Below, piece by piece: positions 25,837 through 37,427 of a DNA stretch of 64,000 bases. Position 1 is the first letter of the stretch; each line of letters starts with the position of its first letter. The stretch is taken from the IMG/VR virus record IMGVR_UViG_3300035490_000050, positions 64,001 to 128,000 of that record; one strand, written 5' to 3'. A program made the translations under genes and the position numbers. This DNA comes from a virus. Under the pieces are notes generated by a model. It saw only the letters and a list, made by a program, of their open reading frames with translations. It ran no database searches and had not been told where the DNA came from.

Positions 25837-25847
25837 AGTTTAGTAAG

Positions 25848-25930: not shown

Positions 25931-25931
25931 T

Positions 25932-26014: not shown

Positions 26015-26021
26015 TAAGTTT

Positions 26022-26106
26022 GTCGATGTGGCGAAACTGGAAACCGCGATAGGCTCAAACCCTATTGTCTTATGACTTGCCGGTTCGATCCCGGCCATCG
26101 ACACCA
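26022..26106 (+). tRNA. tRNA-Leu(CAA)
   Basis: Cloverleaf, V-arm, CCA. Confidence 0.93.
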
Positions 26107-26114
26107 AGTTTTAC

Positions 26115-26204
26115 GGAGACGTGGCACAATGGTACTGCACAGCATTGCTAACGCTGCGATACCCCATAAAGGTATTGGGAGTTCAAGTCTCCCCGTCTCC
26201 GCCA
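26115..26204 (+). tRNA. tRNA-Ser(GCT)
   Basis: Cloverleaf, long V-arm, G73, CCA. Confidence 0.92.
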
Positions 26205-26213
26205 TGTTTTAAC

Positions 26214-26304
26214 GGAAGGATGAGCGGAATTGGTATCGCACTCGCTTGGAAAGCGAGCTTACGTCGAAAGGCGTATGCAGGTTCGAGTCCTGTTCCTTCC
26301 GCCA
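26214..26304 (+). tRNA. tRNA-Ser(GGA)
   Basis: Cloverleaf, long V-arm, G73, CCA. Confidence 0.93.
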
Positions 26305-26305
26305 C

Positions 26306-26395
26306 GGTAGAGTTGGGCATGGCTGGCAAGCCCACCGCTCTCGAAAAGCGACGTACCGCAAGGTACTGGCAGATCGTTCCTGCCCTCTACCGCCA
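26306..26395 (+). tRNA. tRNA-Ser(CGA)
   Basis: Cloverleaf, long V-arm, atypical T-loop ATCGTTC. Confidence 0.85.
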
Positions 26396-26400
26396 AGTTT

Positions 26401-26490
26401 GGATACGTTAGGCATGTGCCAAGCCTACCCCGTTTGAAGCGGGACGCTCCTGAAAGGGACTTGGGGGTTGAACTCCCTCCGTATCCGCCA
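26401..26490 (+). tRNA. tRNA-Ser(TGA)
   Basis: Cloverleaf, long V-arm, T-loop TTGAACT. Confidence 0.85.
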
Positions 26491-26495
26491 GTTGT

Positions 26496-26586
26496 GCGCG
26501 TGTGGCTCAGTGGCGACGGCGGCAGTCTGTAGAACTGCTACCCTTTGCGGTGAACATCGGTGGTTCGACTCCATCCACGCGCACCA
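26496..26586 (+). tRNA. tRNA-Tyr(GTA)
   Basis: Cloverleaf, V-arm, CCA. Confidence 0.92.
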
Positions 26587-26588
26587 CT

Positions 26589-26741
26589 CTACTTTGCCAG
26601 CGCCCGTTTTACAGTTCTCTTTTTCTGAGAAACCTTGGTGTAGGGAGTCTGGTTGAGGGCAGGTTTCACTGTTCCTGAGACCTTGTGTTTGGTGTACGGT
26701 TTTTCTTGCAGGGCTGGCTTGACTTCGCGCTTCGTTGGCAT
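26589..26741 (-). CDS. Small basic repeat peptide (50 aa)
   Basis: GAGG RBS; VKPAL/VKPAL/VKRAL and two PYTK repeats; below ORF-track cutoff. Confidence 0.55.
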   Translation of the reverse strand: MPTKREVKPALQEKPYTKHKVSGTVKPALNQTPYTKVSQKKRTVKRALAK

Positions 26742-26849
26742 TGATTCCACCTCATAAACAGATTAGCACAATAGGAATGTGTGGTACAATTCAGGTATTC
26801 CGTCGTTCCGGCCCGACGTTAAGCAACCGGAAAATCTGAAAGGAAAACC

Positions 26850-27311
26850 ATGAGCAAGATAAAAGGTGTAGACACGTCCGTTTCATCCACCCCAAAATTC
26901 TCACAGAACAAGCCTTCAGGCGATTTCACCCACAAAGACCTCAAGCCGTGCGGAGAAGGCGGTTGTCTCCCACTAGAACAGCCTGTAGGATTCGATGAGG
27001 TTGATATTCCTGAAGTGACCTCTCCTATCCCAACCAACTTTTCTACGGTCGTCCAGATCGTCAACGGCGTAGTAACGCCAACGCTGCAAGTACTGCTCTA
27101 CGATGTACTAAGCGTGATCGACGCCTCAATCCCAAACAAGGATCAGAATCGGGCGGTCAAGAAGTTGATTCACGATGGCTTTGACAAGGCGTATCTGGAC
27201 ATCATCCGAGAAGCCTACCCTGATTCCAACTTTGCAATTGGACCAGGACACGCCTTAACGCCTCTAGCCGACAAGAGTATGGCAATTCAGGCGGCAATCA
27301 GCAAGGTGTAA
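26850..27311 (+). CDS. Hypothetical protein
   Basis: AGGA RBS, 153 aa. Confidence 0.65.
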   Translation: MSKIKGVDTSVSSTPKFSQNKPSGDFTHKDLKPCGEGGCLPLEQPVGFDEVDIPEVTSPIPTNFSTVVQIVNGVVTPTLQVLLYDVLSVIDASIPNKDQNRAVKKLIHDGFDKAYLDIIREAYPDSNFAIGPGHALTPLADKSMAIQAAISKV

Positions 27312-27328
27312 AAAGCGCAGAATTATCC

Positions 27329-27357
27329 TTGACAACTCAGGAAAACGGTAGTACCTT
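27329..27357 (+). promoter_or_regulatory. Promoter directly upstream of tRNA-fMet
   Basis: TTGACA-17-TACCTT. Confidence 0.7.
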
Positions 27358-27363
27358 GGGAAA

Positions 27364-27438
27364 TGCGGGTTGGTAGCGCAGTGTCATACGTCAGGCTCAT
27401 AACCTGAAAATCTGGTGCAAGTCCAGTACCCGCAACCA
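27364..27438 (+). tRNA. tRNA-Met(CAT), initiator-like
   Basis: TCAGG-CTCATAA-CCTGA arm, CCCGCAACCA end; atypical D and T loops. Confidence 0.8.
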
Positions 27439-27646
27439 ATCTGGAGGATGTCATGGGAAATGGCATAATTCCGCATTAGCGGCTAGAAACCGCTAATCAG
27501 TAGAGCGAGAATCCGCTGCGGGAGGTAGTATATGCAGCAGCAGAAAAGGTTGGGGGAGATGGAGAAATCCCTCCCCCAGTCTCACAAGTAAAACGAGGCG
27601 TCGACACAAACCCACGCCTATCGCCTACAAATGAAAGTGGTGTGTT

Positions 27647-28330
27647 TTGAAAATCATCGGCGGTCATGATTATTATGATGTAGCACTGTCGATGGGCATT
27701 GATCCACGGATTGTTCTCTTGCGCGGAAAGAGTAAGAGCATACCAGTAAAGGCTGCTGGCGGGAGTTTGCTTGATCGGTACTTGGAACTCAAGCCACAGG
27801 TTACGTACAACACCTACGGCATAGGAATTGAGAATGTTGCCGTGGCATTTTGTGGGAAGGTTTATCGTGGCGCTGTAGGATTGAAGTCGCTGGAGAAGCC
27901 AGAAGGACTCTGGTCAGCAGATAAGGCAAGAGCATTCGTCGCGCAGGAAAAGAATAGAAAGATTGACGTGGACTCACGGTGGTATGATCGCAGAAACAGG
28001 ATGACCATGGAGGAATATTTCACTCCTTTTGATGCTCCTGATGCTTTGCGGAACTACATGATCGCCAACAAGATTTCGATTCTGGTTGAAGAGCCGCCAA
28101 AGTACCGTGGCGAGGAAAGCTATTTTCAGGTCAATCCTTTCACGCTGAAGCAACTAGGATTCGCAAAGGCTCTTGACCCATACACGGCTTTTCAGGAACT
28201 TTCGATGTGGATCGGTGGAGTTCTTGGGGGAACGAGTCCAGAGATCGTGACGATCAAGGATGACAAGGTTTTGATTGAGAATCACGGGTTTGACAACCGA
28301 TTCTCATTTCGCGGTCCTCGGATCGCATAG
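27647..28330 (+). CDS. Conserved-looking phage hypothetical protein
   Basis: DYYD..DPYTAFQELSMWIGG..HGFD..SFR. Confidence 0.7.
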   Translation: MKIIGGHDYYDVALSMGIDPRIVLLRGKSKSIPVKAAGGSLLDRYLELKPQVTYNTYGIGIENVAVAFCGKVYRGAVGLKSLEKPEGLWSADKARAFVAQEKNRKIDVDSRWYDRRNRMTMEEYFTPFDAPDALRNYMIANKISILVEEPPKYRGEESYFQVNPFTLKQLGFAKALDPYTAFQELSMWIGGVLGGTSPEIVTIKDDKVLIENHGFDNRFSFRGPRIA

Positions 28331-28337
28331 GATTTAC

Positions 28338-28413
28338 GCAACCGTAGCATAGCGGCTAATGTACTTGATTGTCGATCAAGGGTACGCCAGTTCGAATCTG
28401 GTCGGTTGCGCCA
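28338..28413 (+). tRNA. tRNA-Asp(GTC)
   Basis: Cloverleaf, G73, CCA. Confidence 0.92.
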
Positions 28414-28428
28414 TAATCTGAGGACGCC

Positions 28429-28935
28429 ATGAGAGATCGCGCAAAGACAATAGCATCTCTCAGACGGCTTATAGAGCGTCCTGGTACGCCGCAGGAAGGC
28501 GAAACAGCAAGACGCCTATTAGAAATGATGGGCGGGAAGGATTGGGTTCCGCGTCCTTTCGATGCAAGCATGTATCCTTGCGGAACTGAGGTTTTCTACT
28601 GCTACTGGACATACGATAACGAACATGGAGTGGTTTGCAAGCAGCCGCCAAAGATAGAAAGAGGCCAATGGTGGATGCGAATCAAATTCGATAAGCTGAA
28701 GCAGCCGCGTTGGGTAGCAGTAACGAGCGAACTTGGATGCCATTTAGGTTTTGAGCCGTTCAAGGGAAACGACAAGGAAGTTCTCTACCATCGGGATATA
28801 GAATGGGAAGAGACGTATCGGAAGATGATTGAAGAATTCAGGGCGCTAGGAATTGACGTAAGCCGACTTGAGCACGAAGAGGTACAAGATGCACGCGATA
28901 CCGGGTTGGATGTGCGGAGTGGACTTCTCCTGTGA
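28429..28935 (+). CDS. Hypothetical protein (DUF2786-like N-terminus)
   Basis: IASLRRL..TPQEGETARRLL. Confidence 0.55.
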   Translation: MRDRAKTIASLRRLIERPGTPQEGETARRLLEMMGGKDWVPRPFDASMYPCGTEVFYCYWTYDNEHGVVCKQPPKIERGQWWMRIKFDKLKQPRWVAVTSELGCHLGFEPFKGNDKEVLYHRDIEWEETYRKMIEEFRALGIDVSRLEHEEVQDARDTGLDVRSGLLL

Positions 28936-29183
28936 ATTAGGGGAAGCGAACGGCGGGAATACGATCTATCCGTCAGAGGAAAATCTCCGCGCCAACAGGA
29001 AATGCGTAAATTCCTCAGCGCCAGAGGATAAGATGTGCTACCCTGTTGAAGTCGTCACGATGTCGAAAGAGGACTTTCTTGAACTGGTAGAGAAGGCTGG
29101 CATTGATCCTGCGGCGATTCGGTCAAGCAATTGGGGACCAGCGGTTTGGACGAAAGAACAGGGATTGATTCAGTAGAGTTTTT

Positions 29184-29261
29184 GAGATGGCAGAGTGCGT
29201 TGGTTTGCTCCACGGCTTTTCACACCGTGCCACGCGGGTTCGATTCCCGTCCATCTCGCCA
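29184..29261 (+). tRNA. tRNA-Glu(TTC)
   Basis: Cloverleaf with 31:39 mismatch, CCA. Confidence 0.8.
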
Positions 29262-29267
29262 AGTTTT

Positions 29268-29345
29268 GGGGTCACCGTCTAAATGGATTTGGATACCTGA
29301 TTCTCACTCAGGAGATTGCGAGTTCGATCCTCGCTGACCCTACCA
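29268..29345 (+). tRNA. tRNA-Glu(CTC)
   Basis: Cloverleaf, CCA. Confidence 0.9.
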
Positions 29346-29423
29346 CAATTCAAGACTCGCGACCTGATCTGAGTCAACGGGCTGGCACGGTGACCAGTGC
29401 ATCAACCGAAAAGGAGAATAACG

Positions 29424-29798
29424 ATGCGTACCCGTTGCAAGTTCAGAGTCGTTGGTATTGAGAGTGTTGAACACGCGATCTTCAAGAAGGTATACAAGGC
29501 CGATGTGAGCGCCGAAGAATATGAAGCGATCACATCTCAAGAGTGGACCGAATATCCTCCCAATCCAGACAGGCGTCTCGGTGGTGGTCCTGAGCCAAAG
29601 TTGTACAAGCAGATATTTCTAGCGAACGCTCAGAATATCCGATTGGCTGCTCAGTACGACCCTTCCATTCCCGAAGATCAGCGGTTCATGGAAGCCACAC
29701 CCTCTGGGGAAATCAAGATGTATATTTCCAATCCCGCAGTGATAAACGGCTTCAAGATCGGAACGAACTACTACGTTGATCTGACGCCCTGCGATTAA
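29424..29798 (+). CDS. Phage hypothetical protein
   Basis: AGGAG RBS; RCKFRV..FMEATPSG..YYVDLTP. Confidence 0.7.
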   Translation: MRTRCKFRVVGIESVEHAIFKKVYKADVSAEEYEAITSQEWTEYPPNPDRRLGGGPEPKLYKQIFLANAQNIRLAAQYDPSIPEDQRFMEATPSGEIKMYISNPAVINGFKIGTNYYVDLTPCD

Positions 29799-29886
29799 CA
29801 TTGTCTGCCGTACCAGCACAAAAAGAGAAGCCCACCGATGTCTTGGTGGGCCTTTCTTTGCACTCCCCTCGTAAGGTGATACCAGT

Positions 29887-30636
29887 TTACTTCTTTGGAC
29901 TTCCCATGTCAACAGGAGCCATCCGACGCGACATTCCTGCCGCTCTCATTGCCCGCACGGGAACGCTCTTGTAGAAGTCGTTCGTCGTTCGTCCAACGCT
30001 TGCGGAGAACGCCATCGTAGCGTGCGCAGTGTTGGCGTAGGCTGCTCTTACATTGCTTTGGTCGAAGACAACCGAATTGGAGAGATTGATGCCCATTGAA
30101 TCTCCAGCCGTGAACGCACTGAGATCAGCGCCGAGGAAGACGAAGGTCCAGTTTCCTTCCTTCTCTTTATTCTCGATCAGTTCCTTGATCTTCGCAAGAT
30201 TGAATTCTCGTGACGAATTTTCCTGCCCGTCCGTCAAGATGACGGTGAGAATCTTTGGCATCATCCCAAGTGACGGAACGCCTGCAAATGATGCTTCGAC
30301 CTTGGAAACAGTGGACCCGATAGCGTCGAGAAGCGCGGTGCCGCCGCATGGAACGTAACTCTGCTTGGTGAGTTCCGGCACCTCAGAGAGAGCGATGGAT
30401 ACGTGACGGTTTTCAAACCGCGTATCGAACAATGTAAGGCTGAAAGCATACGTCGATTTCTTGTCTTTTTTCAACTCACTGATATACGTGTTGAAACCGC
30501 CGATGGTGTCGTCCAAACAGGTAGCCATGGAACCGGACTTGTCGAGAACAAAGTTGATGAGAACCTTACCGTTTTTTGCGGCGGCTGGATTTGACTTCTT
30601 TGCAATCTTCTTTGGTGCGGATTTCTTTGCTGGCAT
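29887..30636 (-). CDS. vWA-domain protein
   Basis: MIDAS DKSGS, GGTALLDA, TDGQENSS. Confidence 0.9.
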   Translation of the reverse strand: MPAKKSAPKKIAKKSNPAAAKNGKVLINFVLDKSGSMATCLDDTIGGFNTYISELKKDKKSTYAFSLTLFDTRFENRHVSIALSEVPELTKQSYVPCGGTALLDAIGSTVSKVEASFAGVPSLGMMPKILTVILTDGQENSSREFNLAKIKELIENKEKEGNWTFVFLGADLSAFTAGDSMGINLSNSVVFDQSNVRAAYANTAHATMAFSASVGRTTNDFYKSVPVRAMRAAGMSRRMAPVDMGSPKK

Positions 30637-30907
30637 TCGTATTCTCCTGTGCTGCTAACGCGGTTGAAAGTGTTGATTCAGGTACGCGGTAGCACCGCTC
30701 CGCGCCAAGGAAGCTGTAGATTGCAGGTCCAGGTTCACGCCGCGAGTTGTAAACGTCATTCAGATATTGCGGCGAGACACCCATCGTCTGCGCAAATTCC
30801 TTTTGCGTCCTCTCCCCTTGAATCTTCTGCATGATTTCCAAGAGTCCTGCGATATTCGTCACCCTGTACATAAATACTATAATACGCGGATTTGTGGTAT
30901 AATGCAA
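30566..30907 (-). CDS. HTH protein
   Basis: TQKEFAQTMGVSPQYLNDV..REPG. Confidence 0.6.
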   Translation of the reverse strand: MHYTTNPRIIVFMYRVTNIAGLLEIMQKIQGERTQKEFAQTMGVSPQYLNDVYNSRREPGPAIYSFLGAERCYRVPESTLSTALAAQENTNASKEIRTKEDCKEVKSSRRKKR

Positions 30908-30933
30908 GTAGAAAGTTTTTGAAAAGGAGTTTC

Positions 30934-31524
30934 ATGGGAGCGAAGCGTTTACCTGCCACCGTAAAAAATCTGACGCCTATGCGTGCTGCATGGCTTGCTG
31001 CTCTGATTGATGGAGAAGGAACAATCAGTATCCACCTAACGCCTAACGGATCAAAACGTGCGTGGATCGCGGTTTACAACACAAACACCGATATTCTTGA
31101 CAAATGTGCCTATGTGTGTGGCGCTGGCGTTGTTCGGAAGAAAATGCCGGGAAAGAAGAATGATGGATTCAAACGATTGCAAATGTGGGAATGGGAACTT
31201 GATAGAGCAAGAGATGCTCACCATCTTCTATGCCAACTTTATCCGTACCTGATAATCAAGCAACACAAAGCAATAGACCTCATTGTTCATTGGAGGGACG
31301 AAAGAACCAACGATATTTCAGAAAACGACCACGACGACGTAAAGGAAATGAAGATGGCGCAGCGTCATTTAAGCAACAGGGAATTTTCGGTCGCACTTGG
31401 TTTCGGATACGGATGCGTCAGCGGAATATATTCTCGGAATGATCCGCTTTCATCGAGAGTCAGAATCGCGTTGGATAAATACAAGACAGAAATGCCAAAC
31501 AGAAAAGAATTATCTTGGCGATGA
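30934..31524 (+). CDS. Free-standing LAGLIDADG endonuclease-like protein
   Basis: AWLAALIDGEGTI..LYPYLIIKQ. Confidence 0.85.
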   Translation: MGAKRLPATVKNLTPMRAAWLAALIDGEGTISIHLTPNGSKRAWIAVYNTNTDILDKCAYVCGAGVVRKKMPGKKNDGFKRLQMWEWELDRARDAHHLLCQLYPYLIIKQHKAIDLIVHWRDERTNDISENDHDDVKEMKMAQRHLSNREFSVALGFGYGCVSGIYSRNDPLSSRVRIALDKYKTEMPNRKELSWR

Positions 31525-31533
31525 AAATAGTCC

Positions 31534-31562
31534 TTGACAGCGATTCCCATCTGCGCTAAGGT
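31534..31562 (+). promoter_or_regulatory. Promoter of tRNA operon B
   Basis: TTGACA-17-TAAGGT; ATG 8 nt after the -10 box (leaderless). Confidence 0.75.
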
Positions 31563-31569
31563 AGAAAAC

Positions 31570-31650
31570 ATGAAGACGCGATTCCAAAACGCCAATCCAA
31601 CAGCGACGGCAACGCCGCAGGGTCATGGTGCGGAATCAGGGTCTCAGTAG
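31570..31650 (+). CDS. Attenuator leader peptide B (MKTRFQNANPTATATPQGHGAESGSQ)
   Basis: Codons 3-21 use only the nine amino acids of the 11 downstream tRNAs. Confidence 0.85.
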   Translation: MKTRFQNANPTATATPQGHGAESGSQ

Positions 31651-31683
31651 GATTTTTACTCGCATAGAGCGAGTAAAACTGAA

Positions 31684-31724
31684 GAGGCCCGGTCCAAAGA
31701 AGCGGATCGGGCCTCGGTGCTTTT
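31684..31724 (+). terminator. Attenuator terminator B
   Basis: GAGGCCCGGTCC-8nt-GGATCGGGCCTC followed by GGTGCTTTT (weak U-tract). Confidence 0.7.
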
Positions 31725-31732
31725 AGGGATGT

Positions 31733-31808
31733 TCCACGGTCGTCTAACTGTGAAGACACCGAACTGTTAATTCGGGTAATGCAGGTCAGAATCCTGCCTG
31801 TGGAGCCA
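31733..31808 (+). tRNA. tRNA-Asn(GTT)
   Basis: Cloverleaf, atypical T-loop TCAGAAT. Confidence 0.88.
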
Positions 31809-31817
31809 GTTTGAAGT

Positions 31818-31893
31818 TGGGGAGAAGTTCAACGGGTGGAACAATCGGCTCTGACCCGATAGGCAGAAAGTTCGAGACTTTCCTCCCCAGCCA
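31818..31893 (+). tRNA. tRNA-Gln(CTG)
   Basis: U1:A72, cloverleaf, CCA. Confidence 0.9.
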
Positions 31894-31900
31894 AGATCGT

Positions 31901-31974
31901 TGCCCGTTCGTTCAACGGTAGGACACCGCCCTTTGGAGGCGAGGATGGCGGTTCAAGTCCGTCACGGGTAGCCA
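31901..31974 (+). tRNA. tRNA-Gln(TTG)
   Basis: U1:A72, cloverleaf, CCA. Confidence 0.92.
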
Positions 31975-31981
31975 AATTAAC

Positions 31982-32055
31982 GCGGGCATAGCTCAGTGGT
32001 AGAGTGCTGGCTTGCCGAGCCGGAGACGCGGATTCAAGTTCCGCTGCCCGCTCCA
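31982..32055 (+). tRNA. tRNA-Gly(GCC)
   Basis: Cloverleaf, U73, CCA. Confidence 0.93.
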
Positions 32056-32136
32056 TATTGAAAGAGGAAGACGATGAAGGTTGATTTGGACGCCAGCATG
32101 GAATCGGTATACGGAAGGCTGGCAGGAAGGTTTCAG

Positions 32137-32211
32137 GCTGCTGTGGCAGAGAGCTTATGCGCTGACCCCGTAAGTCAGAATACAAGGGTTGAAATCCCTT
32201 CGGCAGCTCCA
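32137..32211 (+). tRNA. tRNA-Thr(CGT), C33 variant
   Basis: CTGAC-CCCGTAA-GTCAG arm, CCA. Confidence 0.85.
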
Positions 32212-32236
32212 GAATGTGACGAAAGCGAGTAGGACG

Positions 32237-32782
32237 ATGAACTTACTGAAAAAACCCGTACTTTTGCTCAACGCATCGTATGAGGCAATTCGCATAATTT
32301 CAGCAAAGAGATCGCTGACTCTCTTAACGAAAGGAAAAGTTGCGGTCGAACTTGCAACGGACAGGGAAGTTTATCCTGGCGTGTTTTTGCCTAGCGTTAT
32401 CCGTCTTCTTGTCTACAAGCATGTTCCCGTCAGAATGCAGCAGATGACGCGCAAAAACCTGTACTTGAGAGACGGTTACAAATGTGGCTATTGCGGTGAG
32501 CAGTTTTCTGGAAGCGAACTGACTTTGGATCACATTATCCCAAAGGCGCAAGGTGGAAAGAACACGTATGAGAACTTGATTACCTGCTGCCGCAAGGATA
32601 ACCATCGGAAAGCGGATCGGACGCCTCAACAGGCAGGAATGGTTTTGTTGAGACGGCCTATCCCGGCAACGGTTCACACTGGTAGGCACATCATGCGTTC
32701 GCTAGGATTAGAAACGCAGGGATGGGCAAAATATCTTTGGGCTGATGCTGATGGTGAGCAGAGGTTAGTGGCAAGAGGATGA
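32237..32782 (+). CDS. HNH endonuclease (McrA-like)
   Basis: VLLLNASYE..PSVIRL..RDGYKCGYCG..TLDHIIP..N..KADRTP. Confidence 0.93.
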   Translation: MNLLKKPVLLLNASYEAIRIISAKRSLTLLTKGKVAVELATDREVYPGVFLPSVIRLLVYKHVPVRMQQMTRKNLYLRDGYKCGYCGEQFSGSELTLDHIIPKAQGGKNTYENLITCCRKDNHRKADRTPQQAGMVLLRRPIPATVHTGRHIMRSLGLETQGWAKYLWADADGEQRLVARG

Positions 32783-32786
32783 GTTT

Positions 32787-32861
32787 GCACTCTAAACATT
32801 GCTGGTGATGCCTTCCCCTGTAAGGAAGTTTAACGGAGTTCGAGTCTCCGAGAGTGCTCCA
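32787..32861 (+). tRNA. tRNA-Thr(TGT), C33 variant
   Basis: CTTCC-CCTGTAA-GGAAG arm, CCA. Confidence 0.85.
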
Positions 32862-32864
32862 AGT

Positions 32865-32941
32865 GTGGCCGTAGTTCAAGAGGAAGAACACATGCCTGTG
32901 GCGCATGTATGATGGGCTTTCGAGCAGCCCCGGCCACCCCA
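32865..32941 (+). tRNA. tRNA-His(GTG)
   Basis: Cloverleaf, C73, CCA. Confidence 0.9.
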
Positions 32942-32946
32942 TTTGT

Positions 32947-33021
32947 GGGGGTGTAGTGACAATGAGAACACGTCCCGTTTGCACCGGGAAAATCGGAGTT
33001 TGAATCTCCGCATCTCCACCA
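32947..33021 (+). tRNA. tRNA-Ala(TGC)
   Basis: G3:U70, cloverleaf, CCA. Confidence 0.9.
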
Positions 33022-33031
33022 CGTAGTTTTT

Positions 33032-33107
33032 GTCTACTGAGCTAGTGCGGTCATAGCAATCGCCTGAAGAGCGATGGAATCCGGTTCGACTCCGGGAGTA
33101 GGCACCA
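33032..33107 (+). tRNA. tRNA-Phe(GAA)
   Basis: Cloverleaf, CCA. Confidence 0.92.
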
Positions 33108-33108
33108 T

Positions 33109-33182
33109 CAGGGAATAGTGTAGTGCTAACATCCGTGTTTTGGGCACACGTGTCCGGGGTTGGAATCCCCGTTCCCTGACCA
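33109..33182 (+). tRNA. tRNA-Pro(TGG)
   Basis: C1:G72, cloverleaf, CCA. Confidence 0.9.
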
Positions 33183-33187
33183 TTTTT

Positions 33188-33262
33188 CAACCCGTCGTTC
33201 AACGGAAAGGACGATGCGCTACGAACGCATAAATGGGGATTCGACTTCCTCCGGGTTGACCA
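33188..33262 (+). tRNA. tRNA-Arg(ACG)
   Basis: Cloverleaf, A20, CCA. Confidence 0.9.
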
Positions 33263-33298
33263 TAGTTCGCAAGCACGAAATAAAGTTGAAAATAATGC

Positions 33299-33327
33299 TT
33301 GCAAATGTCTGGAATGTGTAGTAGGCT
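33299..33327 (+). promoter_or_regulatory. Promoter of ncRNA/HNH/TROVE operon
   Basis: TTGCAA-17-TAGGCT. Confidence 0.65.
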
Positions 33328-33355
33328 TGATTTCGTTGGGTTTTGAAACACAGGT

Positions 33356-33482
33356 TTGCGTCTACTGTTGAGCGTACATGATGACTAGCTCACTCGGTAG
33401 AGCGATTCCCTTCAAAGGAATAGGTCACTGGTTCGATTCCAGTGTCATCTACTTCGGTAGATCGCTCAACGTCTTGACGCAG
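33356..33482 (+). ncRNA. Y-RNA-like tRNA mimic 1
   Basis: tRNA core (D, anticodon TCA, T arms) closed by extended stems GTTGAGCG/CGCTCAAC and TGCGTC/GACGCA; no CCA. Confidence 0.7.
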
Positions 33483-33487
33483 TAAAT

Positions 33488-33605
33488 TTGGGTGTAATTT
33501 TCGGCTTACATGAGCCTGTTTGGTCAGGCACTTGCCGTTGGAGCAAACTAACCCGGTTCGATTCCGGGATGTTACCCGAAAGGGTTGCCGAGAGACTTCA
33601 CCCAA
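33488..33605 (+). ncRNA. Y-RNA-like tRNA mimic 2
   Basis: Same layout: TTGGGTG/CACCCAA, TCGGC/GCCGA, T arm CCCGG-TTCGATT-CCGGG, extra GAAA hairpin. Confidence 0.7.
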
Positions 33606-33613
33606 TAAGTTGT

Positions 33614-33731
33614 GGGGGACCGCTTAGTAAACCGAGGACGACTTCTCGGAAACGAGTACGGTTCTAGGATACATGACAAGCATACAGCCGAAAGGCTGTG
33701 TATCGTGGCTAAACACCACGGTCCTCCACCA
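33614..33731 (+). ncRNA. 118-nt tRNA-like RNA with Ala-type acceptor stem
   Basis: GGGGGAC/GTCCTCC-ACCA (G3:U70), T-like arm CGTGG-CTAAACA-CCACG. Confidence 0.6.
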
Positions 33732-33752
33732 AAGTTTTGTAGTACAAGTTGT

Positions 33753-33873
33753 GGCGGGTTAGCAAAACGGAAAAGCTCTGCATGTCTTGACGCGCAATCG
33801 TCTATTTTGCAGGTTACATGCACATTCACTCGGAGAATGCACAATCTAGGTTCGACTCCTAGACCCGCCACCA
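33753..33873 (+). ncRNA. 121-nt expanded tRNA-like RNA
   Basis: GGCGGGT/ACCCGCC-ACCA, canonical T arm, enlarged anticodon and variable regions. Confidence 0.65.
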
Positions 33874-34082
33874 TAAGATTTACCGCATGGGAGTGCGGAA
33901 ACGAGTTTGGCTGACACTGGTTTCGTGGATACATGTTTTTGGGGATCATATCCCCACCCCCCGCCTAAGCCCTTTGGCAACGGAGGATTTAGGCGGGGGT
34001 TCTGAGGGCCGCAAGGCTGCTTAGAAAACAATTGCCCACAACCGACTTTCAGCCACTATTTTTGTGCCTTGGGAGAGGGAAT

Positions 34083-34643
34083 ATGGCCAGCGGTGATCGT
34101 TTCTACATGCTATCCTTGCGCCATCGCCCTGCGGTGTACGGCGATCTCGGAAACATCCTCAAAATCGAAGGTTTGGTGGTAGGCGGAGAAGGGGCGCATG
34201 TAATTCTTACGCTTCCCTCTTCCGATCTAAAAACTGATACCTACTGGGATGCTAATACATTCCCAGCAATTCATCAGTTATCCCTTGAGGAGTGGACCGA
34301 TTTTCTAGCGCGTACTGACGATCCAGAAATTCTAATCGGTCAAGCGAAGGCTTTCCATCGCAAATGCCGTTATGAAATTTCAGGGGCGGTACAGCAGAAG
34401 ATATGGGTAGCTGATGGTCTAAAGTGCATGTACTGCGGAGTCAGGATGGGCAGGGCACAACTCACAGTGGACCATTGGGAATCGCTTGAGGCTGGTGGAA
34501 AGAACGATAGCTCAAATTTTCTCGCAGCCTGCAAGACGTGTAATAAGGCCAAAGGTTCCATGCCGCCGCGTGACTGGTGCAGCCTTCGCAAAATTGATTA
34601 CGACTTCTTTGTGGAGTATCTGAGAACGAGGAAGTTGCCTTAA
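34083..34643 (+). CDS. HNH endonuclease
   Basis: DGLKCMYCG..LTVDH..GG..N..ACKTCNKAKG. Confidence 0.88.
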   Translation: MASGDRFYMLSLRHRPAVYGDLGNILKIEGLVVGGEGAHVILTLPSSDLKTDTYWDANTFPAIHQLSLEEWTDFLARTDDPEILIGQAKAFHRKCRYEISGAVQQKIWVADGLKCMYCGVRMGRAQLTVDHWESLEAGGKNDSSNFLAACKTCNKAKGSMPPRDWCSLRKIDYDFFVEYLRTRKLP

Positions 34644-34671
34644 CACTTTTCGCACCGGGAGGGCGAATACT

Positions 34672-36165
34672 ATGGCAGAAACAGGGCTTACACGTCAAAG
34701 AATTTTGTCGGAATTGTCGAAGAGTCCACACGGCTCTTTGAAAGAGTATCTTCCTATCGGCAAACAGGCCGTTCAACAGGAAGGTGAATTTTATCAACAC
34801 ATGCTTGCCTGGGATAGGACGCATGGGCAGATTAGGGACAGCAAGGTTGCGCTTCCTGTGATCGGCTTGGCTTTTGAGAAGGATGAGGAATTACTCGACA
34901 ACAGCCTTGCTCACATCGCTCTTTTGGGGCCGCGTGAACTGGCAAGAGCATATCGGTTTGGATTGGAGATTCGTCTCCCTGGCAAGATGCGTCAGTTGCG
35001 TAGGCTTGTCGAAGACTACCTACACCAAAAGGAGCAAGACAAAGGTTGGGATCATCTGGCAATCCAGCACAGGGGTACGCTGAAGGAACTCTACTCTCTG
35101 GCGCACGCAAAGCCTGAAAAGGAGAGAACCAACGTCGTTCTCTATGGCAGGAACTTCGACAAGACAAAGGCACCGCTGCCCAAGGGATCAGTCTTTGAGG
35201 TAGTAGCAAACCTCAAGAACATGAGTCCTACGGAGGCTGCTGGTTCGATCATGAAGTACCGGATTCCTTTCCTTATCGCCATGGGCGCGTTAGGCGCAAA
35301 GGCGAAGGAGCCGGATTTGGTACTGGCTTTGATCGGAGCCATGTCTGCAACGGAGTTGACCACGAACGTCAAGATGCTGGAGAAGTTGGGCCTGAAGACG
35401 AATCCTGCGCTGCGTGGGGCATTCGACAACGCATTGGCTAAGGCGGCTACGTCGAAGAAGAATACGCTCAAGACGACTCAGGCGGTCGAGGCCGTACAGG
35501 ACGAGGGATTGAAGGAGAAGCTCCGTGGACTACAGGCAAAGCAGATAGCGGCTGCGGGTGGTCCAGACGGCGACTGGGTAATTTTAGTTGACAAATCTGG
35601 ATCGATGCACCATGCAATCGAAACTGGTTGCCATGTTGCAGGGGCGCTCACACAGTTCGTCAAAGGAAAGGTTGGGTTGATTTTCTTCGATACCTCTCCT
35701 ATGGCGGTGGACGTAACCGGCTTGTCGCTGGACCAAATCAAGAAGGCGACACGACACTTCACAGCGAACGGTGGAACATCCATCGGCTGCGGTCTGAATC
35801 GGATGCTGGTAGAGAAAGTTGCTGTGGATGGAATTGTGATCGTGTCGGACGGTGGAGACAACACTGCTCCACTATTCCATGACGTATATCCGAAGTACGC
35901 GAAATTCTGCGATAAGGATGTGCCGGTGTATTTCTACCAACTTAGCGGAGAATCGGACAAGCTGACGCCGAACATGCAACGGGCAGGAATCGAGATGACA
36001 ACATTCGATTTGCGCGGTTCAAAGCTGGACTACTACAGCATTCCGAACACGGTCAAGACGCTTCGCAGTAACCAGTACAGTTTGGTTGAGGAAATACTCT
36101 CGACCCCGCTTTTAACCCTCAACACCGTGCTCAAGGGAGCGCAGAAAGGACTGGTGACAGTCTAA
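34672..36165 (+). CDS. TROVE/Ro60-like protein with C-terminal vWA
   Basis: About 300-aa helical N-terminus (EFYQHMLAW..IRDSK) plus VDKSGSM, GGTSIG, VSDG MIDAS; Ro60-like length; next to Y-like RNAs. Confidence 0.7.
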   Translation: MAETGLTRQRILSELSKSPHGSLKEYLPIGKQAVQQEGEFYQHMLAWDRTHGQIRDSKVALPVIGLAFEKDEELLDNSLAHIALLGPRELARAYRFGLEIRLPGKMRQLRRLVEDYLHQKEQDKGWDHLAIQHRGTLKELYSLAHAKPEKERTNVVLYGRNFDKTKAPLPKGSVFEVVANLKNMSPTEAAGSIMKYRIPFLIAMGALGAKAKEPDLVLALIGAMSATELTTNVKMLEKLGLKTNPALRGAFDNALAKAATSKKNTLKTTQAVEAVQDEGLKEKLRGLQAKQIAAAGGPDGDWVILVDKSGSMHHAIETGCHVAGALTQFVKGKVGLIFFDTSPMAVDVTGLSLDQIKKATRHFTANGGTSIGCGLNRMLVEKVAVDGIVIVSDGGDNTAPLFHDVYPKYAKFCDKDVPVYFYQLSGESDKLTPNMQRAGIEMTTFDLRGSKLDYYSIPNTVKTLRSNQYSLVEEILSTPLLTLNTVLKGAQKGLVTV

Positions 36166-36464
36166 TGAATATCAACGCACTGAAGAACTTCAACGCCGAC
36201 CGTATGGACTTGGATGACATGGTAGGCTTGCTTGCGGACTGCAAGGCACTCCGCGCTGAGTACGAGGCGCTCCAGATCGAAGAGCCTGAGTATATCGACA
36301 CAACCATCAAGGCAATTCGCCGGGAGATCACATCCCGCAACGCTGACAAGATCGCGGCTCGTAAGCGTGAGCTTGCCGCACGGATCGACAGCCTCAAGAC
36401 TCCTGCACAGAAGAAGGCAGAACTTGAGAAGGAGCTTGCCAAGTTGGAAGCCGTTCCTGTCTAA
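36165..36464 (+). CDS. Small coiled-coil protein
   Basis: TAATG coupling to the TROVE-like gene. Confidence 0.75.
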   Translation: MNINALKNFNADRMDLDDMVGLLADCKALRAEYEALQIEEPEYIDTTIKAIRREITSRNADKIAARKRELAARIDSLKTPAQKKAELEKELAKLEAVPV

Positions 36465-36485
36465 CCCATCAACCATTTGAGCGAA

Positions 36486-36515
36486 GGGGCACAGGATAAC
36501 GTGCCCCACTTTTTT
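36486..36515 (+). terminator. Terminator of TROVE operon
   Basis: GGGGCAC-8nt-GTGCCCC followed by ACTTTTTT. Confidence 0.75.
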
Positions 36516-36518
36516 CTC

Positions 36519-36547
36519 TTGCATTCCTAATCGACCTGGGGTACAGT
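36519..36547 (+). promoter_or_regulatory. Promoter of tRNA operon C
   Basis: TTGCAT-17-TACAGT. Confidence 0.65.
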
Positions 36548-36557
36548 TTCTATAGTG

Positions 36558-36638
36558 ATGAAGAGGATCATTGGTATCACCTCTTTTCTGTTCGCCCACC
36601 CCCTTCGGCTCTCCCAAGTGTCCGGGGATGTAGGCTAA
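36558..36638 (+). CDS. Upstream leader ORF C1 (MKRIIGITSFLFAHPLRLSQVSGDVG)
   Basis: Near-leaderless start; begins AAG AGG ATC ATT GGT ATC ACC; its stop overlaps the RBS of C2. Confidence 0.5.
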   Translation: MKRIIGITSFLFAHPLRLSQVSGDVG

Positions 36639-36645
36639 GGAAAAC

Positions 36646-36732
36646 ATGCAGACGACCACCAGACGCGGGACCATAACCAGAATGACCAAGCGGGTCATTT
36701 GGGGAATAGTGCGCGAGGGTTGGGACGATTAA
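36646..36732 (+). CDS. Attenuator leader peptide C2 (MQTTTRRGTITRMTKRVIWGIVREGWDD)
   Basis: TAAGGA RBS; codons 3-23 use only the eight amino acids of the downstream tRNAs. Confidence 0.85.
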   Translation: MQTTTRRGTITRMTKRVIWGIVREGWDD

Positions 36733-36756
36733 ATCTGCAAAAAGATTGAATCTACC

Positions 36757-36782
36757 AGCCCGGTCTTAGGATCGGGCTTTTT
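36757..36782 (+). terminator. Attenuator terminator C
   Basis: AGCCCGGTC-TTAG-GATCGGGCT followed by TTTT. Confidence 0.88.
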
Positions 36783-36811
36783 GATGTTTGAAAACTGAAA
36801 CGAATAATCAT

Positions 36812-36886
36812 GCCTCGTTAAGCTAGTTGGGAAACTGTCGGTCTCCAAAGCCGAACTCAGGGGTTCAAATCCTCTACGGGGTGCCA
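36812..36886 (+). tRNA. tRNA-Trp(CCA)
   Basis: Cloverleaf, G73, CCA. Confidence 0.9.
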
Positions 36887-36891
36887 TTTTT

Positions 36892-36969
36892 GCCAGTGTA
36901 GTTCAGTCGGCTTAGAACGCTGCATTCATAACGCAGAGGTCAACAGTTCAATCCTGTTCACTGGCACCA
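36892..36969 (+). tRNA. tRNA(CAT), elongator Met or Ile2
   Basis: Cloverleaf, CCA; identity cannot be settled by eye. Confidence 0.88.
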
Positions 36970-36973
36970 AGTT

Positions 36974-37071
36974 GGAGCGGCGGCGCATAATTCACTGGCG
37001 GTATCGGACAGCTAAGACTACCGAGACGTGCAGAACTCACCGAAAGGTTAGCCGTTGCAGTGGGCCGCTCC
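36974..37071 (+). ncRNA. Unknown structured RNA within tRNA operon C
   Basis: Closing stem GGAGCGGC/GCCGCTCC with internal CACTG/CAGTG and a GAAA hairpin. Confidence 0.45.
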
Positions 37072-37158
37072 GAAAGTTCACGGCTGTAAAGCCTATACCG
37101 ATGGCGCAAGGCCATCCTGCCGTGATTAAGTTTCGAGTCCTAGTGGGGGCACCATAGT

Positions 37159-37245
37159 GGAACCGTGGCCTAGTCTGGTTTTGGGCACCCGGCTCTTACC
37201 CGGCGCAGAAATGCAACGCAGGTTCAAATCCTGCCGGTTCCACCA
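37159..37245 (+). tRNA. tRNA-Lys(CTT) with long variable arm
   Basis: Cloverleaf plus GCA-GAAA-TGC V-arm. Confidence 0.88.
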
Positions 37246-37255
37246 ACACTTTTAC

Positions 37256-37341
37256 GGAGTCGTACTCGAATTGGATGCAGAGACCTGACTTTTAATCAGC
37301 GGGGTAACCCAATGGGGGTTCGAGTCCCCCCGGCTCCACCA
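37256..37341 (+). tRNA. tRNA-Lys(TTT) with long variable arm
   Basis: Cloverleaf plus GGG-GTAA-CCC V-arm. Confidence 0.88.
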
Positions 37342-37346
37342 GTTAC

Positions 37347-37423: not shown

Positions 37424-37427
37424 TTTT

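What the first reader, a model, noticed from the sequence alone, without database searches (positions are those of the whole stretch)
31570..31724. Attenuator B: 19 consecutive codons drawn only from the downstream tRNA set
Codons 3-21 (ACG CGA TTC CAA AAC GCC AAT CCA ACA GCG ACG GCA ACG CCG CAG GGT CAT GGT GCG) encode only T, R, F, Q, N, A, P, G and H. They cover all 11 tRNAs from 31733 to 33262, including the six beyond the HNH gene, which implies one transcript with the HNH gene inside. Antiterminator: GGGTCTCAGT pairs with ACTGAAGAGGCCC around the hairpin TTTTACTCGC/GCGAGTAAAA. The ATG sits at the predicted transcription start (leaderless). The terminator U-tract is weak.
Basis: partly seen in the sequence, partly recalled or inferred. 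Interest (0 to 1): 0.85.

Follow-up and report, generated by a model that had tools for sequence, protein, structure and literature searches.

The report
Leader-peptide attenuator gating phage tRNA genes
A 26-codon test gene, written almost only in the codons read by the eleven phage tRNA genes that follow it and joined to a switchable transcription stop, probably lets this peat-soil phage make those tRNAs only when ribosomes read their codons slowly.

Summary
ATG 31570 to TAG 31650 encodes 26 residues. Codons 3-21 use only T, R, F, Q, N, A, P, G and H, the nine amino acids of the 11 tRNA genes at 31733-33262, and every one of those tRNAs has a readable codon.

At codon level this 19-codon stretch (18 in set) is unique among 127,888 positions in six frames. 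None of 40,000 composition-matched shuffles reach it.

A TTGACA-17-TAAGGT promoter ends 7 nt before the ATG. A 12-bp terminator hairpin and a competing antiterminator are predicted.

Seven further distinct leaders from related uncultured phages, and the cultured Tunturiibacter phage Tunturi_5, keep the layout and the residue set while the peptide order drifts.

Best reading, at 0.6: a trp/thr-style ribosome-mediated attenuator applied to tRNA genes. Nothing was measured. The U-tract is weak, and the isoacceptor match is looser in relatives.

Six full-text searches found no paper on this control. This scan had already noted the same design at the other two tRNA blocks of this genome and in several other phage genomes.

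The parts
31534..31562 (+). Sigma-70-type promoter: TTGACA (31534-31539), 17-nt spacer, TAAGGT (31557-31562). The ATG begins 7 nt after the -10 hexamer, so the mRNA would be leaderless or nearly so.
   Evidence: Read. The motif TTGACA-N16-18-TANNNT occurs 11 times in the window against 1.07 expected, and 0 of 100 shuffles reach 11. The same layout is found in 8 of 8 distinct leaders, with a variable middle in the -10 hexamer. The start site was not measured.
31570..31650 (+). Leader ORF, 26 codons plus TAG: MKTRFQNANPTATATPQGHGAESGSQ
   Evidence: Homologous short ORFs lie at the same place in seven other distinct leaders.
31576..31632 (+). Sensed codons 3-21. All 19 encode residues of tRNA block B, 18 are strictly cognate, and all 11 tRNAs are covered.
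31632..31650 (+). Region 2, the upstream strand of the antiterminator. The core GGGTCTC is at 31639-31645, with flanks 31632-31634 and 31648-31650 (the stop codon). A ribosome sitting at the stop codon would cover it.
   Evidence: Folds. Its duplex with the terminator's 5' arm is -16.3 kcal/mol, and 10 of 2000 shuffles do as well.
31654..31678 (+). Inner hairpin (10 bp, 5-nt loop) enclosed by the antiterminator. It is present in both alternative folds.
   Evidence: 4 of its pairs show compensatory change among the 8 leaders.
31684..31715 (+). Terminator hairpin: 5' arm 31684-31695 (region 3), 8-nt loop, 3' arm 31704-31715 (region 4). It has 12 bp, 9 of them G-C, and -24.8 kcal/mol.
   Evidence: 8 of 11 consensus pairs show compensatory change. 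10 of the 12 nt of the 5' arm are sequestered in the antiterminator fold.
31716..31725 (+). Tail GGTGCTTTTA. This is a weak, interrupted U-tract, with the T run at 31721-31724.
   Evidence: Tails are weak or lack a U run in most close relatives.
31733..32211 (+). tRNA genes Asn-gtt, Gln-ctg, Gln-ttg, Gly-gcc, Thr-cgt
   Evidence: ARAGORN and Rfam RF00005.
32237..32782 (+). HNH-domain protein gene (181 aa) inside the tRNA block
   Evidence: Pfam HNH, E 1.3e-14. It is 48% identical to the HNH gene at the same position in Tunturi_5. A gap of 576-595 nt lies at this place in the window, L002, L005 and L012. The gap is longer in L003 and L007.
32787..33262 (+). tRNA genes Thr-tgt, His-gtg, Ala-tgc, Phe-gaa, Pro-tgg, Arg-acg

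Best explanation
This is a ribosome-mediated (leader-peptide) transcription attenuator that gates tRNA block B.

Proposed steps:
1. Host RNA polymerase starts at the TTGACA/TAAGGT promoter, and a ribosome loads on the 5'-terminal AUG.
2. If the 19 test codons are read quickly, the ribosome reaches the TAG and covers region 2 (31632-31650). Region 3 then pairs with region 4, the hairpin 31684-31715 forms, and transcription tends to stop before tRNA-Asn.
3. If any of the tested codons is read slowly because its tRNA is scarce, the ribosome stalls upstream and region 2 stays free. Region 2 pairs with region 3 around the inner hairpin, the terminator cannot form, and the polymerase runs on through the five tRNAs, the HNH gene and the six further tRNAs.
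4. As the phage tRNAs accumulate, the leader is read quickly again and the block shuts itself off. This is negative feedback.

Because several tRNAs are sampled by a single codon, the device would work as an OR gate for severe shortage rather than as a fine gauge.

Shown here: the sequence elements, their statistical rarity, their conservation and the hairpin covariation.
Inferred: the start site, translation, termination, read-through, and what is sensed.
For: (1) Codon match. 18 of 19 codons are strictly cognate and 11 of 11 tRNAs are covered. The stretch is unique among 127,888 windows. 0 of 40,000 local shuffles reach it, and the match is frame-specific.

(2) Specificity within the genome. 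Leader B has 19 of 25 codons in set B, against 1 of 25 in set A and 2 of 25 in set C. Leaders A (25535) and C (36646) match their own blocks best, at 13 of 26 and 13 of 27.

(3) Conservation of composition, not sequence.
- Over 8 distinct leaders, 165 of 189 codons after the start encode set-B residues. The background is 0.469.
- In the zone at least 14 nt upstream of region 2 the count is 144 of 155, against 21 of 34 in the masked tail.
- All nine residues are present in that zone in 7 of 8 leaders.
- Frame 0 gives 18-19 of 20 residues in set, against 9-15 in the other frames, in 8 of 8 leaders.

(4) Architecture. Promoter, short ORF, region 2 at the stop codon, inner hairpin and terminator are present in 8 of 8 leaders.
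- The antiterminator fold takes 7-13 nt of the terminator's 5' arm in 8 of 8.
- The segment under a terminating ribosome pairs with that arm better than shuffles, with at most 87 of 2000 doing as well, in 7 of 8. It also beats every other ORF window tested in 8 of 8.
- The stop codon stays next to region 2, although the start-to-region-2 distance takes values that are not all equal modulo 3: 69, 74, 69, 72, 74, 74, 75. These distances are worked out by hand from the coordinates.
- Terminator covariation: 8 of 11 pairs.

(5) Independent distant case. The cultured Tunturi_5 has the same three tRNA blocks, each behind a short ORF and a hairpin.
- Its B leader has 24 of 36 strict codons in its own set, against 2 and 10 for the other sets.
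- 13 of 13 tRNAs are covered.
- The terminator is strong, with a T-rich tail.
- It has an antiterminator of the same topology.
- Its block C holds Asp, Glu and Arg tRNAs, and its leader is rich in D, E and R. Its block B holds Thr-ggt and Ala-ggc, and its leader uses ACC and GCC.

(6) The three best terminator-like sites on the + strand of 25000-38500 are the ones behind the three leaders.
Against: - No measurement exists of the start site, translation, 3' ends or read-through.
- The four RNA runs that were laid gave no contig over the leader.
- The tail after the hairpin is a weak U-tract in the window. L002, L012 and L134 have no U run at all, and there an ORF with a Shine-Dalgarno-like site follows the hairpin instead of tRNA-Asn.
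- Several tRNAs are sampled by one codon only (His, Phe, Arg). Classical attenuators use runs of codons.
- The isoacceptor-level match is looser in relatives. GCC is present in all 8 leaders although only Ala-tgc is in the block. ACC appears in 6 of the 7 relatives, although the Thr-ggt gene, where one was found (L003, L005), lies in block C. Strict counts are 14-16 of 20 in the relatives.
- Leader and tRNA set do not always agree. L003's leader has no His codon although tRNA-His is present. L005 has no detectable Ala tRNA, and L002 has none with an Ala anticodon, yet both keep Ala codons.
- A crude equilibrium model with a masked ribosome footprint gave no clean switch. In the window the 5' arm was predicted paired upstream at 0.8 without a ribosome and about 0.5 with the ribosome at the stop.
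- The 1:2 (anti-antiterminator) helix is weakly supported in the window itself (-6.0 kcal/mol; 305 of 2000 shuffles do as well).
- L007 starts with GTG, which is a poor leaderless start in E. coli (recalled).
- Three of the seven relatives (L012, L112, L134) were fished with a region-2 pattern, so conservation of that motif in them is by construction.
Confidence: 0.6

Rival explanations
1. The mechanism is the same, but the signal is a different one. The leader gauges amino-acid supply (charged against uncharged tRNA) or general elongation capacity, as classical attenuators do, rather than the abundance of particular tRNA species.
For: A leader-peptide attenuator cannot tell a missing tRNA from an uncharged one (established for trp and his attenuators; recalled). 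The Anabaena trn array is induced by general translational stress (PMC8421152, passages read).
Against: Making more tRNA does not relieve amino-acid starvation, so the codon-to-gene match would have no pay-off. The match is to the block's own tRNAs, it differs between the three blocks of one genome, and it follows the different block contents of Tunturi_5.
Confidence: 0.15
2. The hairpin is not a regulated terminator. It would be a processing or stability element of the tRNA precursor (for example an RNase III or RNase E site, or a 5' protective structure), and the short ORF may or may not be translated.
For: The U-tract is weak in the window and absent in L002, L012 and L134. There is no 3'-end data.
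Against: This does not explain the frame-specific codon set, the stop codon kept next to region 2 in 8 of 8 leaders, or the conserved alternative pairing with the hairpin's 5' arm. In Tunturi_5 and at leaders A and C the equivalent hairpins carry good T runs.
Confidence: 0.12
3. The ORF encodes a working micro-protein, and its composition is incidental to the tRNA genes.
For: A short ORF is conserved in all relatives, with a recurrent T-P-Q-G-N stretch in several.
Against: Residue order and length drift (21-28 codons) while the residue set is kept. The three leaders of one genome each use the set of their own tRNA block. No Rfam family matched this stretch. The 26-residue peptide itself was not scanned against protein libraries.
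Confidence: 0.04
4. Direct RNA-tRNA sensing, T-box-like. The codon string binds anticodons without translation.
For: A row of codons is by nature complementary to anticodons.
Against: There is no Rfam T-box or other match at E up to 1. The signal is tied to one reading frame, to a start codon at the predicted 5' end, and to a stop codon at the switch. No specifier-loop architecture is present.
Confidence: 0.03
5. Chance: a T-poor stretch that happens to read as set-B codons.
For: The core is T-poor (6 T in 57 nt). This raises the expected in-set residues to 12.3 of 19. A 20-residue set-B run exists elsewhere in the window.
Against: 0 of 40,000 composition-matched shuffles reach the observed score. 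The stretch is unique at codon level in the window. It is conserved in 7 further distinct leaders and in Tunturi_5.
Confidence: 0.01

Closest known systems
Multivalent leader-peptide attenuators of enterobacterial amino-acid operons (thrL for Thr and Ile; ilvL/ivbL for Leu, Val, Ile) and the single-residue ones (trpL, hisL, pheL, leuL). Textbook knowledge, recalled. General descriptions were seen in the abstracts of PMC1183508 and PMC3082878.
   Same: A promoter-proximal short ORF carries regulatory codons. The stop codon sits at the upstream strand of an antiterminator that competes with an intrinsic terminator. The controlled genes lie downstream on the same transcript.
   Different: - The controlled genes are tRNA genes, not biosynthetic enzymes.
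- Nine amino acids and eleven tRNAs are sampled, mostly by one to four scattered codons rather than by runs.
- The mRNA is probably leaderless.
- An extra hairpin sits inside the antiterminator.
- The U-tract is weak.
- No Rfam leader family matches the stretch.
pheM leader of the pheST operon (phenylalanyl-tRNA synthetase). Recalled; not looked up here.
   Same: Leader-peptide attenuation is used for a component of the decoding apparatus rather than for amino-acid synthesis.
   Different: It controls a synthetase gene, with a run of Phe codons only, and it is a host gene.
T-box riboswitches
   Same: Both sense the state of a particular tRNA and set read-through of a terminator by an alternative antiterminator.
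   Different: T-boxes bind the tRNA directly through one specifier codon and need no ribosome. Here the signal is frame-bound with start and stop codons, and Rfam finds no T-box.
Inducible tRNA array (trn operon) of Anabaena sp. PCC 7120 (PMC8421152; PMC10272220)
   Same: A horizontally spreading block of extra tRNA genes is kept silent and switched on when translation is impaired.
   Different: Control there is at the promoter, through direct repeats bound by the repressor TrcR. 'Leader peptide' and 'attenuat' occur 0 times in both texts (find mode).
The same design noted by this scan at blocks A and C of this genome, and in other phage genomes (notes listed)
   Same: Promoter, a codon-matched short ORF, a switchable terminator, then a tRNA block.
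   Different: Those are AI notes, mostly unchecked. Here block B is tested on its own. It has the largest sampled set (11 tRNAs), a protein gene inside the block, and a cultured relative (Tunturi_5) has been identified.

Membership tests
Ribosome-mediated (leader-peptide) transcription attenuators | A short ORF with start and stop codons between the promoter and the first controlled gene | tested here: met
   ATG 31570 to TAG 31650, 7 nt after the -10 hexamer and 82 nt before tRNA-Asn. Present in 8 of 8 distinct leaders.
Ribosome-mediated (leader-peptide) transcription attenuators | Regulatory codons that correspond to the product of the controlled genes | tested here: met
   18 of 19 codons are strictly cognate and 11 of 11 tRNAs are covered. 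Unique in the window. 0 of 40,000 shuffles reach it. 144 of 155 codons in set over 8 leaders.
Ribosome-mediated (leader-peptide) transcription attenuators | An intrinsic terminator (G+C-rich hairpin plus U-tract) between the leader ORF and the controlled genes | tested here: inconclusive
   A 12-bp hairpin with 9 G-C pairs, with covariation in 8 of 11 pairs. But the tail is GGTGCTTTTA, and three relatives have no U run. Tunturi_5's equivalent has a strong T run.
Ribosome-mediated (leader-peptide) transcription attenuators | An antiterminator that excludes the terminator, with its upstream strand covered by a ribosome at the stop codon | tested here: met
   Predicted only. The fold of 31634-31700 is -26.6 kcal/mol with z -5.7. 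Present in 8 of 8 leaders, with partners lying -21 to +12 nt from the stop. Better than shuffles in 7 of 8.
Ribosome-mediated (leader-peptide) transcription attenuators | A 1:2 helix (pause or anti-antiterminator) that holds region 2 when the leader is not being translated | tested here: inconclusive
   The full-length minimum-energy fold pairs 31575-31586 with 31631-31643. The 5'-terminal 10 nt are the best ORF partner of region 2 in 6 of 8 leaders. Support is weak in the window (305 of 2000 shuffles) and absent in L003.
Ribosome-mediated (leader-peptide) transcription attenuators | The leader is translated, and termination responds to decoding speed | not testable with these tools
   No raw RNA reads are available. 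The RNA contigs laid do not cover the leader.
Rfam leader families (Thr_leader, His_leader, Trp_leader, Leu_leader, Phe_leader and the like) | A match to the family's covariance model | tested here: not met
   No match at 31570-31724 at E up to 1. The only leader-type row is a sub-threshold Trp_leader hit (24 bits against 41) at 36715-36785, behind leader C.
T-box riboswitch | Specifier loop and T-box antiterminator (covariance model match) | tested here: not met
   No match in 25000-38500 at E up to 1.

The most novel reading that the evidence does not exclude
The phage carries a three-channel sensor of the tRNA pool. Each tRNA block is a self-limiting supply module, opened when any one of the tRNAs it encodes runs out. 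For block B that is an eleven-input OR gate. Shortage could come from host-shutoff decay of host tRNAs, from codon-usage mismatch, or from host anticodon-nuclease defences. The phage would then replace exactly the tRNA class under attack and switch production off again. The design is old enough to be shared with a cultured Acidobacteriota jumbo phage, and it keeps a conserved HNH protein under the same control.
Probability: 0.35. Interest if true: 0.9.

Novelty: new variant of a known kind. Interest (0 to 1): 0.8.

Why it matters
- Phage tRNA genes are usually discussed only in terms of why phages carry them. How their output is controlled is almost unknown.
- A leader-peptide attenuator in front of tRNA genes would be the first case of tRNA synthesis being fed back from decoding speed at the matching codons. 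It would extend a textbook mechanism to a new class of target and to an unusually high number of inputs.
- It bears on the contest between tRNA-cleaving host defences and phage tRNA resupply.
- It would give a natural, compact multi-codon sensor for cell-free and synthetic biology.
- The same layout is present in Tunturi_5, which has a culturable host (PMC11924767, passages read), so the idea can be tested at the bench.

Tried and rejected
- Amino-acid-level run length alone as the statistic. Rejected as too weak: there is a 20-run elsewhere, and 4 of 200 shuffles reach 19. Replaced by codon-level and composition-matched tests.
- A Shine-Dalgarno reading of AAGG at 31558-31561. Set aside because the hexamer's middle varies in relatives while T-A-x-x-x-T and the spacing are kept.
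- An equilibrium ribosome-masking model. It gave no clean switch, and its automatic terminator finder failed for L003 and L007. I report it as evidence against and did not tune it. Arms were then set by motif.
- RNAalifold on the MAFFT alignment of the antiterminator segment. The core pairs are invariant, L003 is misaligned, and the covariation term is +1.03. So covariation support for the 2:3 helix is limited to one-sided changes and to the wholly different L003 pair seen in single folds.
- Co-variation of leader and tRNA set among close relatives. The sets are nearly constant, so the test has little power. The mismatches found are listed under evidence against.
- RNA evidence. Four metatranscriptome runs hold only 0.05-0.10 of the sampled words.
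  - Near-identical contig pieces lie on 31912-32169, 32011-32170, 32085-32235 and 32794-32957, all within the tRNA block.
  - None lies on 31534-31732.
  - These are contigs in RNA libraries that may contain DNA, so they show neither a single transcript nor the absence of the leader RNA.
- megablast of 25000-38500 against the phage collection gave only short tRNA matches (11 records, each covering 1% of the query or less). One of them led to Tunturi_5.
- L004 (a contig that starts inside block B) and L006 (a Ro60 relative with a single tRNA in 21 kb) gave no leader. L006 was not studied further.
- Of the 120 metagenome loci fished with the 15-base pattern, 117 had no similarity to the leader alignment at E 1e-3 and were dropped as chance matches.
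- Supplementary files of the papers were not opened.
Full report
**What is there.** The window is the second half of a 136,454-bp viral record rated complete. It holds 31 tRNA genes on the + strand, grouped as follows:
- Block A, 25676-26586: Leu, Cys, Ser, Tyr.
- Single Asp and Glu genes.
- Block B, 31733-33262.
- A tca-anticodon tRNA at 33379.
- Block C, 36812-37979.

The finding lies just ahead of block B. The ORF ATG 31570 to TAG 31650 reads MKTRFQNANPTATATPQGHGAESGSQ.

Block B holds Asn-gtt, Gln-ctg, Gln-ttg, Gly-gcc and Thr-cgt. An HNH gene follows at 32237-32782 (Pfam HNH, E 1.3e-14). Then come Thr-tgt, His-gtg, Ala-tgc, Phe-gaa, Pro-tgg and Arg-acg. The nine amino acids of these eleven tRNAs are exactly the nine used by codons 3-21, and each tRNA can read at least one leader codon.

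**Is it more than chance?**
- At amino-acid level the case is modest. The run of 19 is only the second longest set-B run in the window, and 4 of 200 whole-window shuffles reach 19 somewhere.
- The set-B codons are nearly all T-poor, and the core has only 6 T in 57 nt, so local composition had to be controlled.
- With conservative wobble rules, 18 of the 19 codons are cognate (GCC is the exception).
- This is the only one of 127,888 19-codon windows in six frames that reaches 18; the mean is 5.8.
- 0 of 40,000 shuffles of the 57 nt themselves reach 19 residues or 18 codons in set (means 12.3 and 7.7).
- The two other frames of the same DNA give 12 and 11 residues, and 9 and 8 codons.
- Within the genome the match is specific. 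Leader B has 19 of 25 codons in set B, 1 of 25 in set A and 2 of 25 in set C. The short ORFs ahead of blocks A (25535) and C (36646) match their own blocks best.
- In this genome Thr and Gly are even split by isoacceptor. Leader B uses ACG/ACA and GGT, which fit Thr-cgt, Thr-tgt and Gly-gcc in block B. Leader C uses ACC five times plus GGG and GGA, which fit Thr-ggt and Gly-tcc in block C.

**Anatomy.**
- *Promoter.* TTGACA (31534), a 17-nt spacer and TAAGGT (31557) end 7 nt before the ATG. The motif TTGACA-N16-18-TANNNT occurs 11 times in the window against 1.07 expected, and 0 of 100 shuffles reach 11. It therefore looks like a real promoter class here.
- *Terminator.* After the ORF lies a 12-bp hairpin, 31684-31715 (9 G-C pairs, -24.8 kcal/mol), with the tail GGTGCTTTTA. 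It is the top terminator-like site of the region, and the next good + strand sites include those behind leaders A and C.
The pairs are 31639-31645 with 31684-31690, 31632-34 with 31693-95, and 31648-50 with 31679-81, around the inner hairpin 31654-63/31669-78. This takes 10 of the 12 nt of the terminator's 5' arm.
- *Full-length fold.* The full leader folds at -66.7 kcal/mol (z -5.2) into an ORF-internal helix, the inner hairpin and the terminator.
- *Energy balance.* The terminator state is the ground state: -39.3 kcal/mol for the inner hairpin plus the terminator, against -30.0 for the antiterminator segment. As in classical attenuators, the antiterminator would have to win by forming first.

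**Relatives.**
- The Ro60-like gene 34672-36165 served as an anchor and gave nine viral loci at 65-78% protein identity.
- Seven of them contain the place ahead of tRNA-Asn, and all seven have a homologous short ORF there. These make four distinct sequences: L002, L003=L010, L005 and L007=L008=L009.
- L004 starts inside the block. L006 has no tRNA array in reach.
- A pattern from region 2 and the inner hairpin gave one more viral locus, L012. In metagenome contigs it gave 120 loci, of which 3 were true relatives by nhmmer: L034 (the same leader as L012), L112 and L134.
- In total there are eight distinct leaders, counting the window.

All eight share the following features:
- TTGACA, a 17-18 nt spacer, an xAxxxT hexamer whose middle varies, and a start codon 6-10 nt further on (ATG in seven, GTG in L007). 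This favours the leaderless reading over a Shine-Dalgarno reading of the window's AAGG.
- The peptides differ in order and in length (21-28 codons) but not in composition. 165 of 189 codons after the start encode set-B residues.
- In the zone where a stalled ribosome would leave region 2 free, 144 of 155 codons are in set, against 21 of 34 in the tail. All nine residues are present in that zone in 7 of 8 leaders; L003 lacks His.
- The out-of-set codons of the window (GAA, TCA, TCT and the non-cognate GGG) lie in the masked tail.
- The stop codon lies inside or a few nt before region 2 in all eight.
- The antiterminator fold is found in 8 of 8. Its duplex beats shuffles in 7 of 8.
- The terminator hairpin shows compensatory change at 8 of 11 pairs, and the inner hairpin at 4 pairs.

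In 6 of 8 leaders the first ten nucleotides, start codon included, are the best partner of region 2 within the ORF. This would explain the out-of-set second codon (AAG, ATG). The support is weak in the window itself.

**A cultured, distant case.** A tRNA-Gly match led to Tunturiibacter phage Tunturi_5, which has a 308,711-bp genome and the host Tunturiibacter psychrotolerans X4BP1.
- It has the same three blocks in the same order, with an HNH gene after Thr-cgt. That protein is 48% identical to the window's (E 2e-54), so the HNH gene is an old resident of the block, not a recent invader.
- Each block follows a short ORF and a hairpin.
- Its B leader, MQHVSTFRFAVPATAGNPAGQQGTNACDTGGGKVVKW, has 24 of 36 strict codons in its own block's set, against 2 and 10 for the other two sets, and covers 13 of 13 tRNAs.
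- That leader is followed by a hairpin with a long T run, and it has an antiterminator of the same topology (-26.0 kcal/mol, z -2.9).
- Leader content follows block content across the two genomes. Tunturi_5's block C holds Asp, Glu and Arg tRNAs, and its leader is rich in D, E and R (33 of 48 strict codons, 16 of 16 tRNAs). Its block B holds Thr-ggt and Ala-ggc, and its leader uses ACC and GCC.
- In 55 kb of that genome, the B-leader score is reached at one other place only.
- The paper describing Tunturi_5 lists 43 tRNA genes and never uses 'attenuat' or 'leader' (passages read by find).

**Mechanism.** The best reading is a trp/thr-style attenuator.
- A ribosome that runs to the TAG covers region 2, the terminator forms, and the block stays shut.
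- A ribosome held up at any of codons 3 to about 19 leaves region 2 free to take the terminator's 5' arm, and transcription runs into the tRNAs.
- The product then speeds up reading of the leader and closes the gate.
- The shown and inferred steps are separated under Best explanation.
- Single-codon sampling of His, Phe and Arg suits detection of a missing tRNA more than fine tuning.

**One transcript through the HNH gene.** This is supported only indirectly.
- No TTGACA-type promoter, even with one mismatch in the -35 hexamer, lies in 31733-33262.
- There is no good terminator there.
- Ten of the 19 sensed codons belong to tRNAs found only beyond the HNH gene.
- The arrangement is conserved.

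**Against the reading.**
- Nothing was measured.
- The U-tract is weak. L002, L012 and L134 have no U run, and there an ORF follows the hairpin.
- The isoacceptor match is looser in relatives: 14-16 of 20 strict codons, with GCC in all eight leaders and ACC in six relatives.
- Leader and tRNA set disagree in places. L003 has tRNA-His but no His codon. L005 has no detectable Ala tRNA, and L002 has none with an Ala anticodon, yet both keep Ala codons.
- A crude equilibrium model gave no clean switch.
- The RNA-library contigs cover parts of the block but not the leader, and they cannot show transcripts.

**Known or new.**
- Rfam has no match for the stretch.
- Six full-text searches found no paper that describes leader-peptide control of tRNA genes. 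I saw listings and abstracts only, except for the four papers read by find.
- The nearest in print is the Anabaena trn array, which is controlled by the repressor TrcR at the promoter (PMC8421152, PMC10272220; passages).
- This scan had already noted the same design at blocks A and C of this genome and in several other phage genomes. One such note was later priced at 93/100 for what was seen and 30/100 for the bold reading.
- I rate it a new variant of a known kind.

Noticed in passing
window 32074-32232: A 52-codon ORF with a GAGGAAG ribosome-binding-like site starts 19 nt after tRNA-Gly and runs across the whole tRNA-Thr(cgt) gene (32137-32211). It ends 4 nt before the HNH start. It has no Pfam match. 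RNA-library contigs of relatives carry a similar AAGGAAG...ATGAAG after tRNA-Gly (loose ends).
   Followed up: partly
window 32237-32782 and L137 26149-26670: The HNH protein inside tRNA block B is 48% identical between this phage and Tunturi_5, and it sits at the same place, after Thr-cgt. It therefore looks like a conserved member of the tRNA operon rather than a roving homing endonuclease. An HNH endonuclease (alr0856) is also listed among genes derepressed with the Anabaena trn array (PMC10272220, passage).
   Followed up: partly
window 29268-29342 and 27369-27434: Rfam finds a tRNA (46.6 bits) right after tRNA-Glu that ARAGORN missed. It also finds a sub-threshold tRNA-like match (22.8 bits) 12 nt after the TTGACA-type promoter at 27329-27357.
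   Followed up: no
L002 3246-3320: In the slot where relatives have tRNA-Ala, L002 has a tRNA-like sequence with a CCA end. It has an acceptor stem like the Ala tRNAs (G3:U70 by eye) but the anticodon TAC. ARAGORN calls it Val only at a lowered threshold, and Rfam finds nothing.
   Followed up: partly
L012 4597 onward; L002 about 1083 onward; L134 about 330 onward: In three relatives an ORF with a Shine-Dalgarno-like site has been placed between the attenuator hairpin and tRNA-Asn, so it would fall under the attenuator's control. The ORFs were not identified.
   Followed up: no
window 37983-38011: A perfect TTGACA-17-TACTCT promoter motif starts 4 nt after the last tRNA of block C.
   Followed up: no
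window 30934-31524: The ORF just upstream of the leader carries a LAGLIDADG-like motif (…LAALIDGEG…, read by eye) but has no Pfam match at E 0.01. It is probably a homing endonuclease. This would explain why the upstream neighbour is not conserved.
   Followed up: partly
L136 7752-7901 and L137 17157-17255, 25223-25336 (Tunturi_5): The annotated 'hypothetical protein' gp308 of Tunturi_5 is the leader ORF of its tRNA block C. The leaders of blocks A and B are unannotated.
   Followed up: yes
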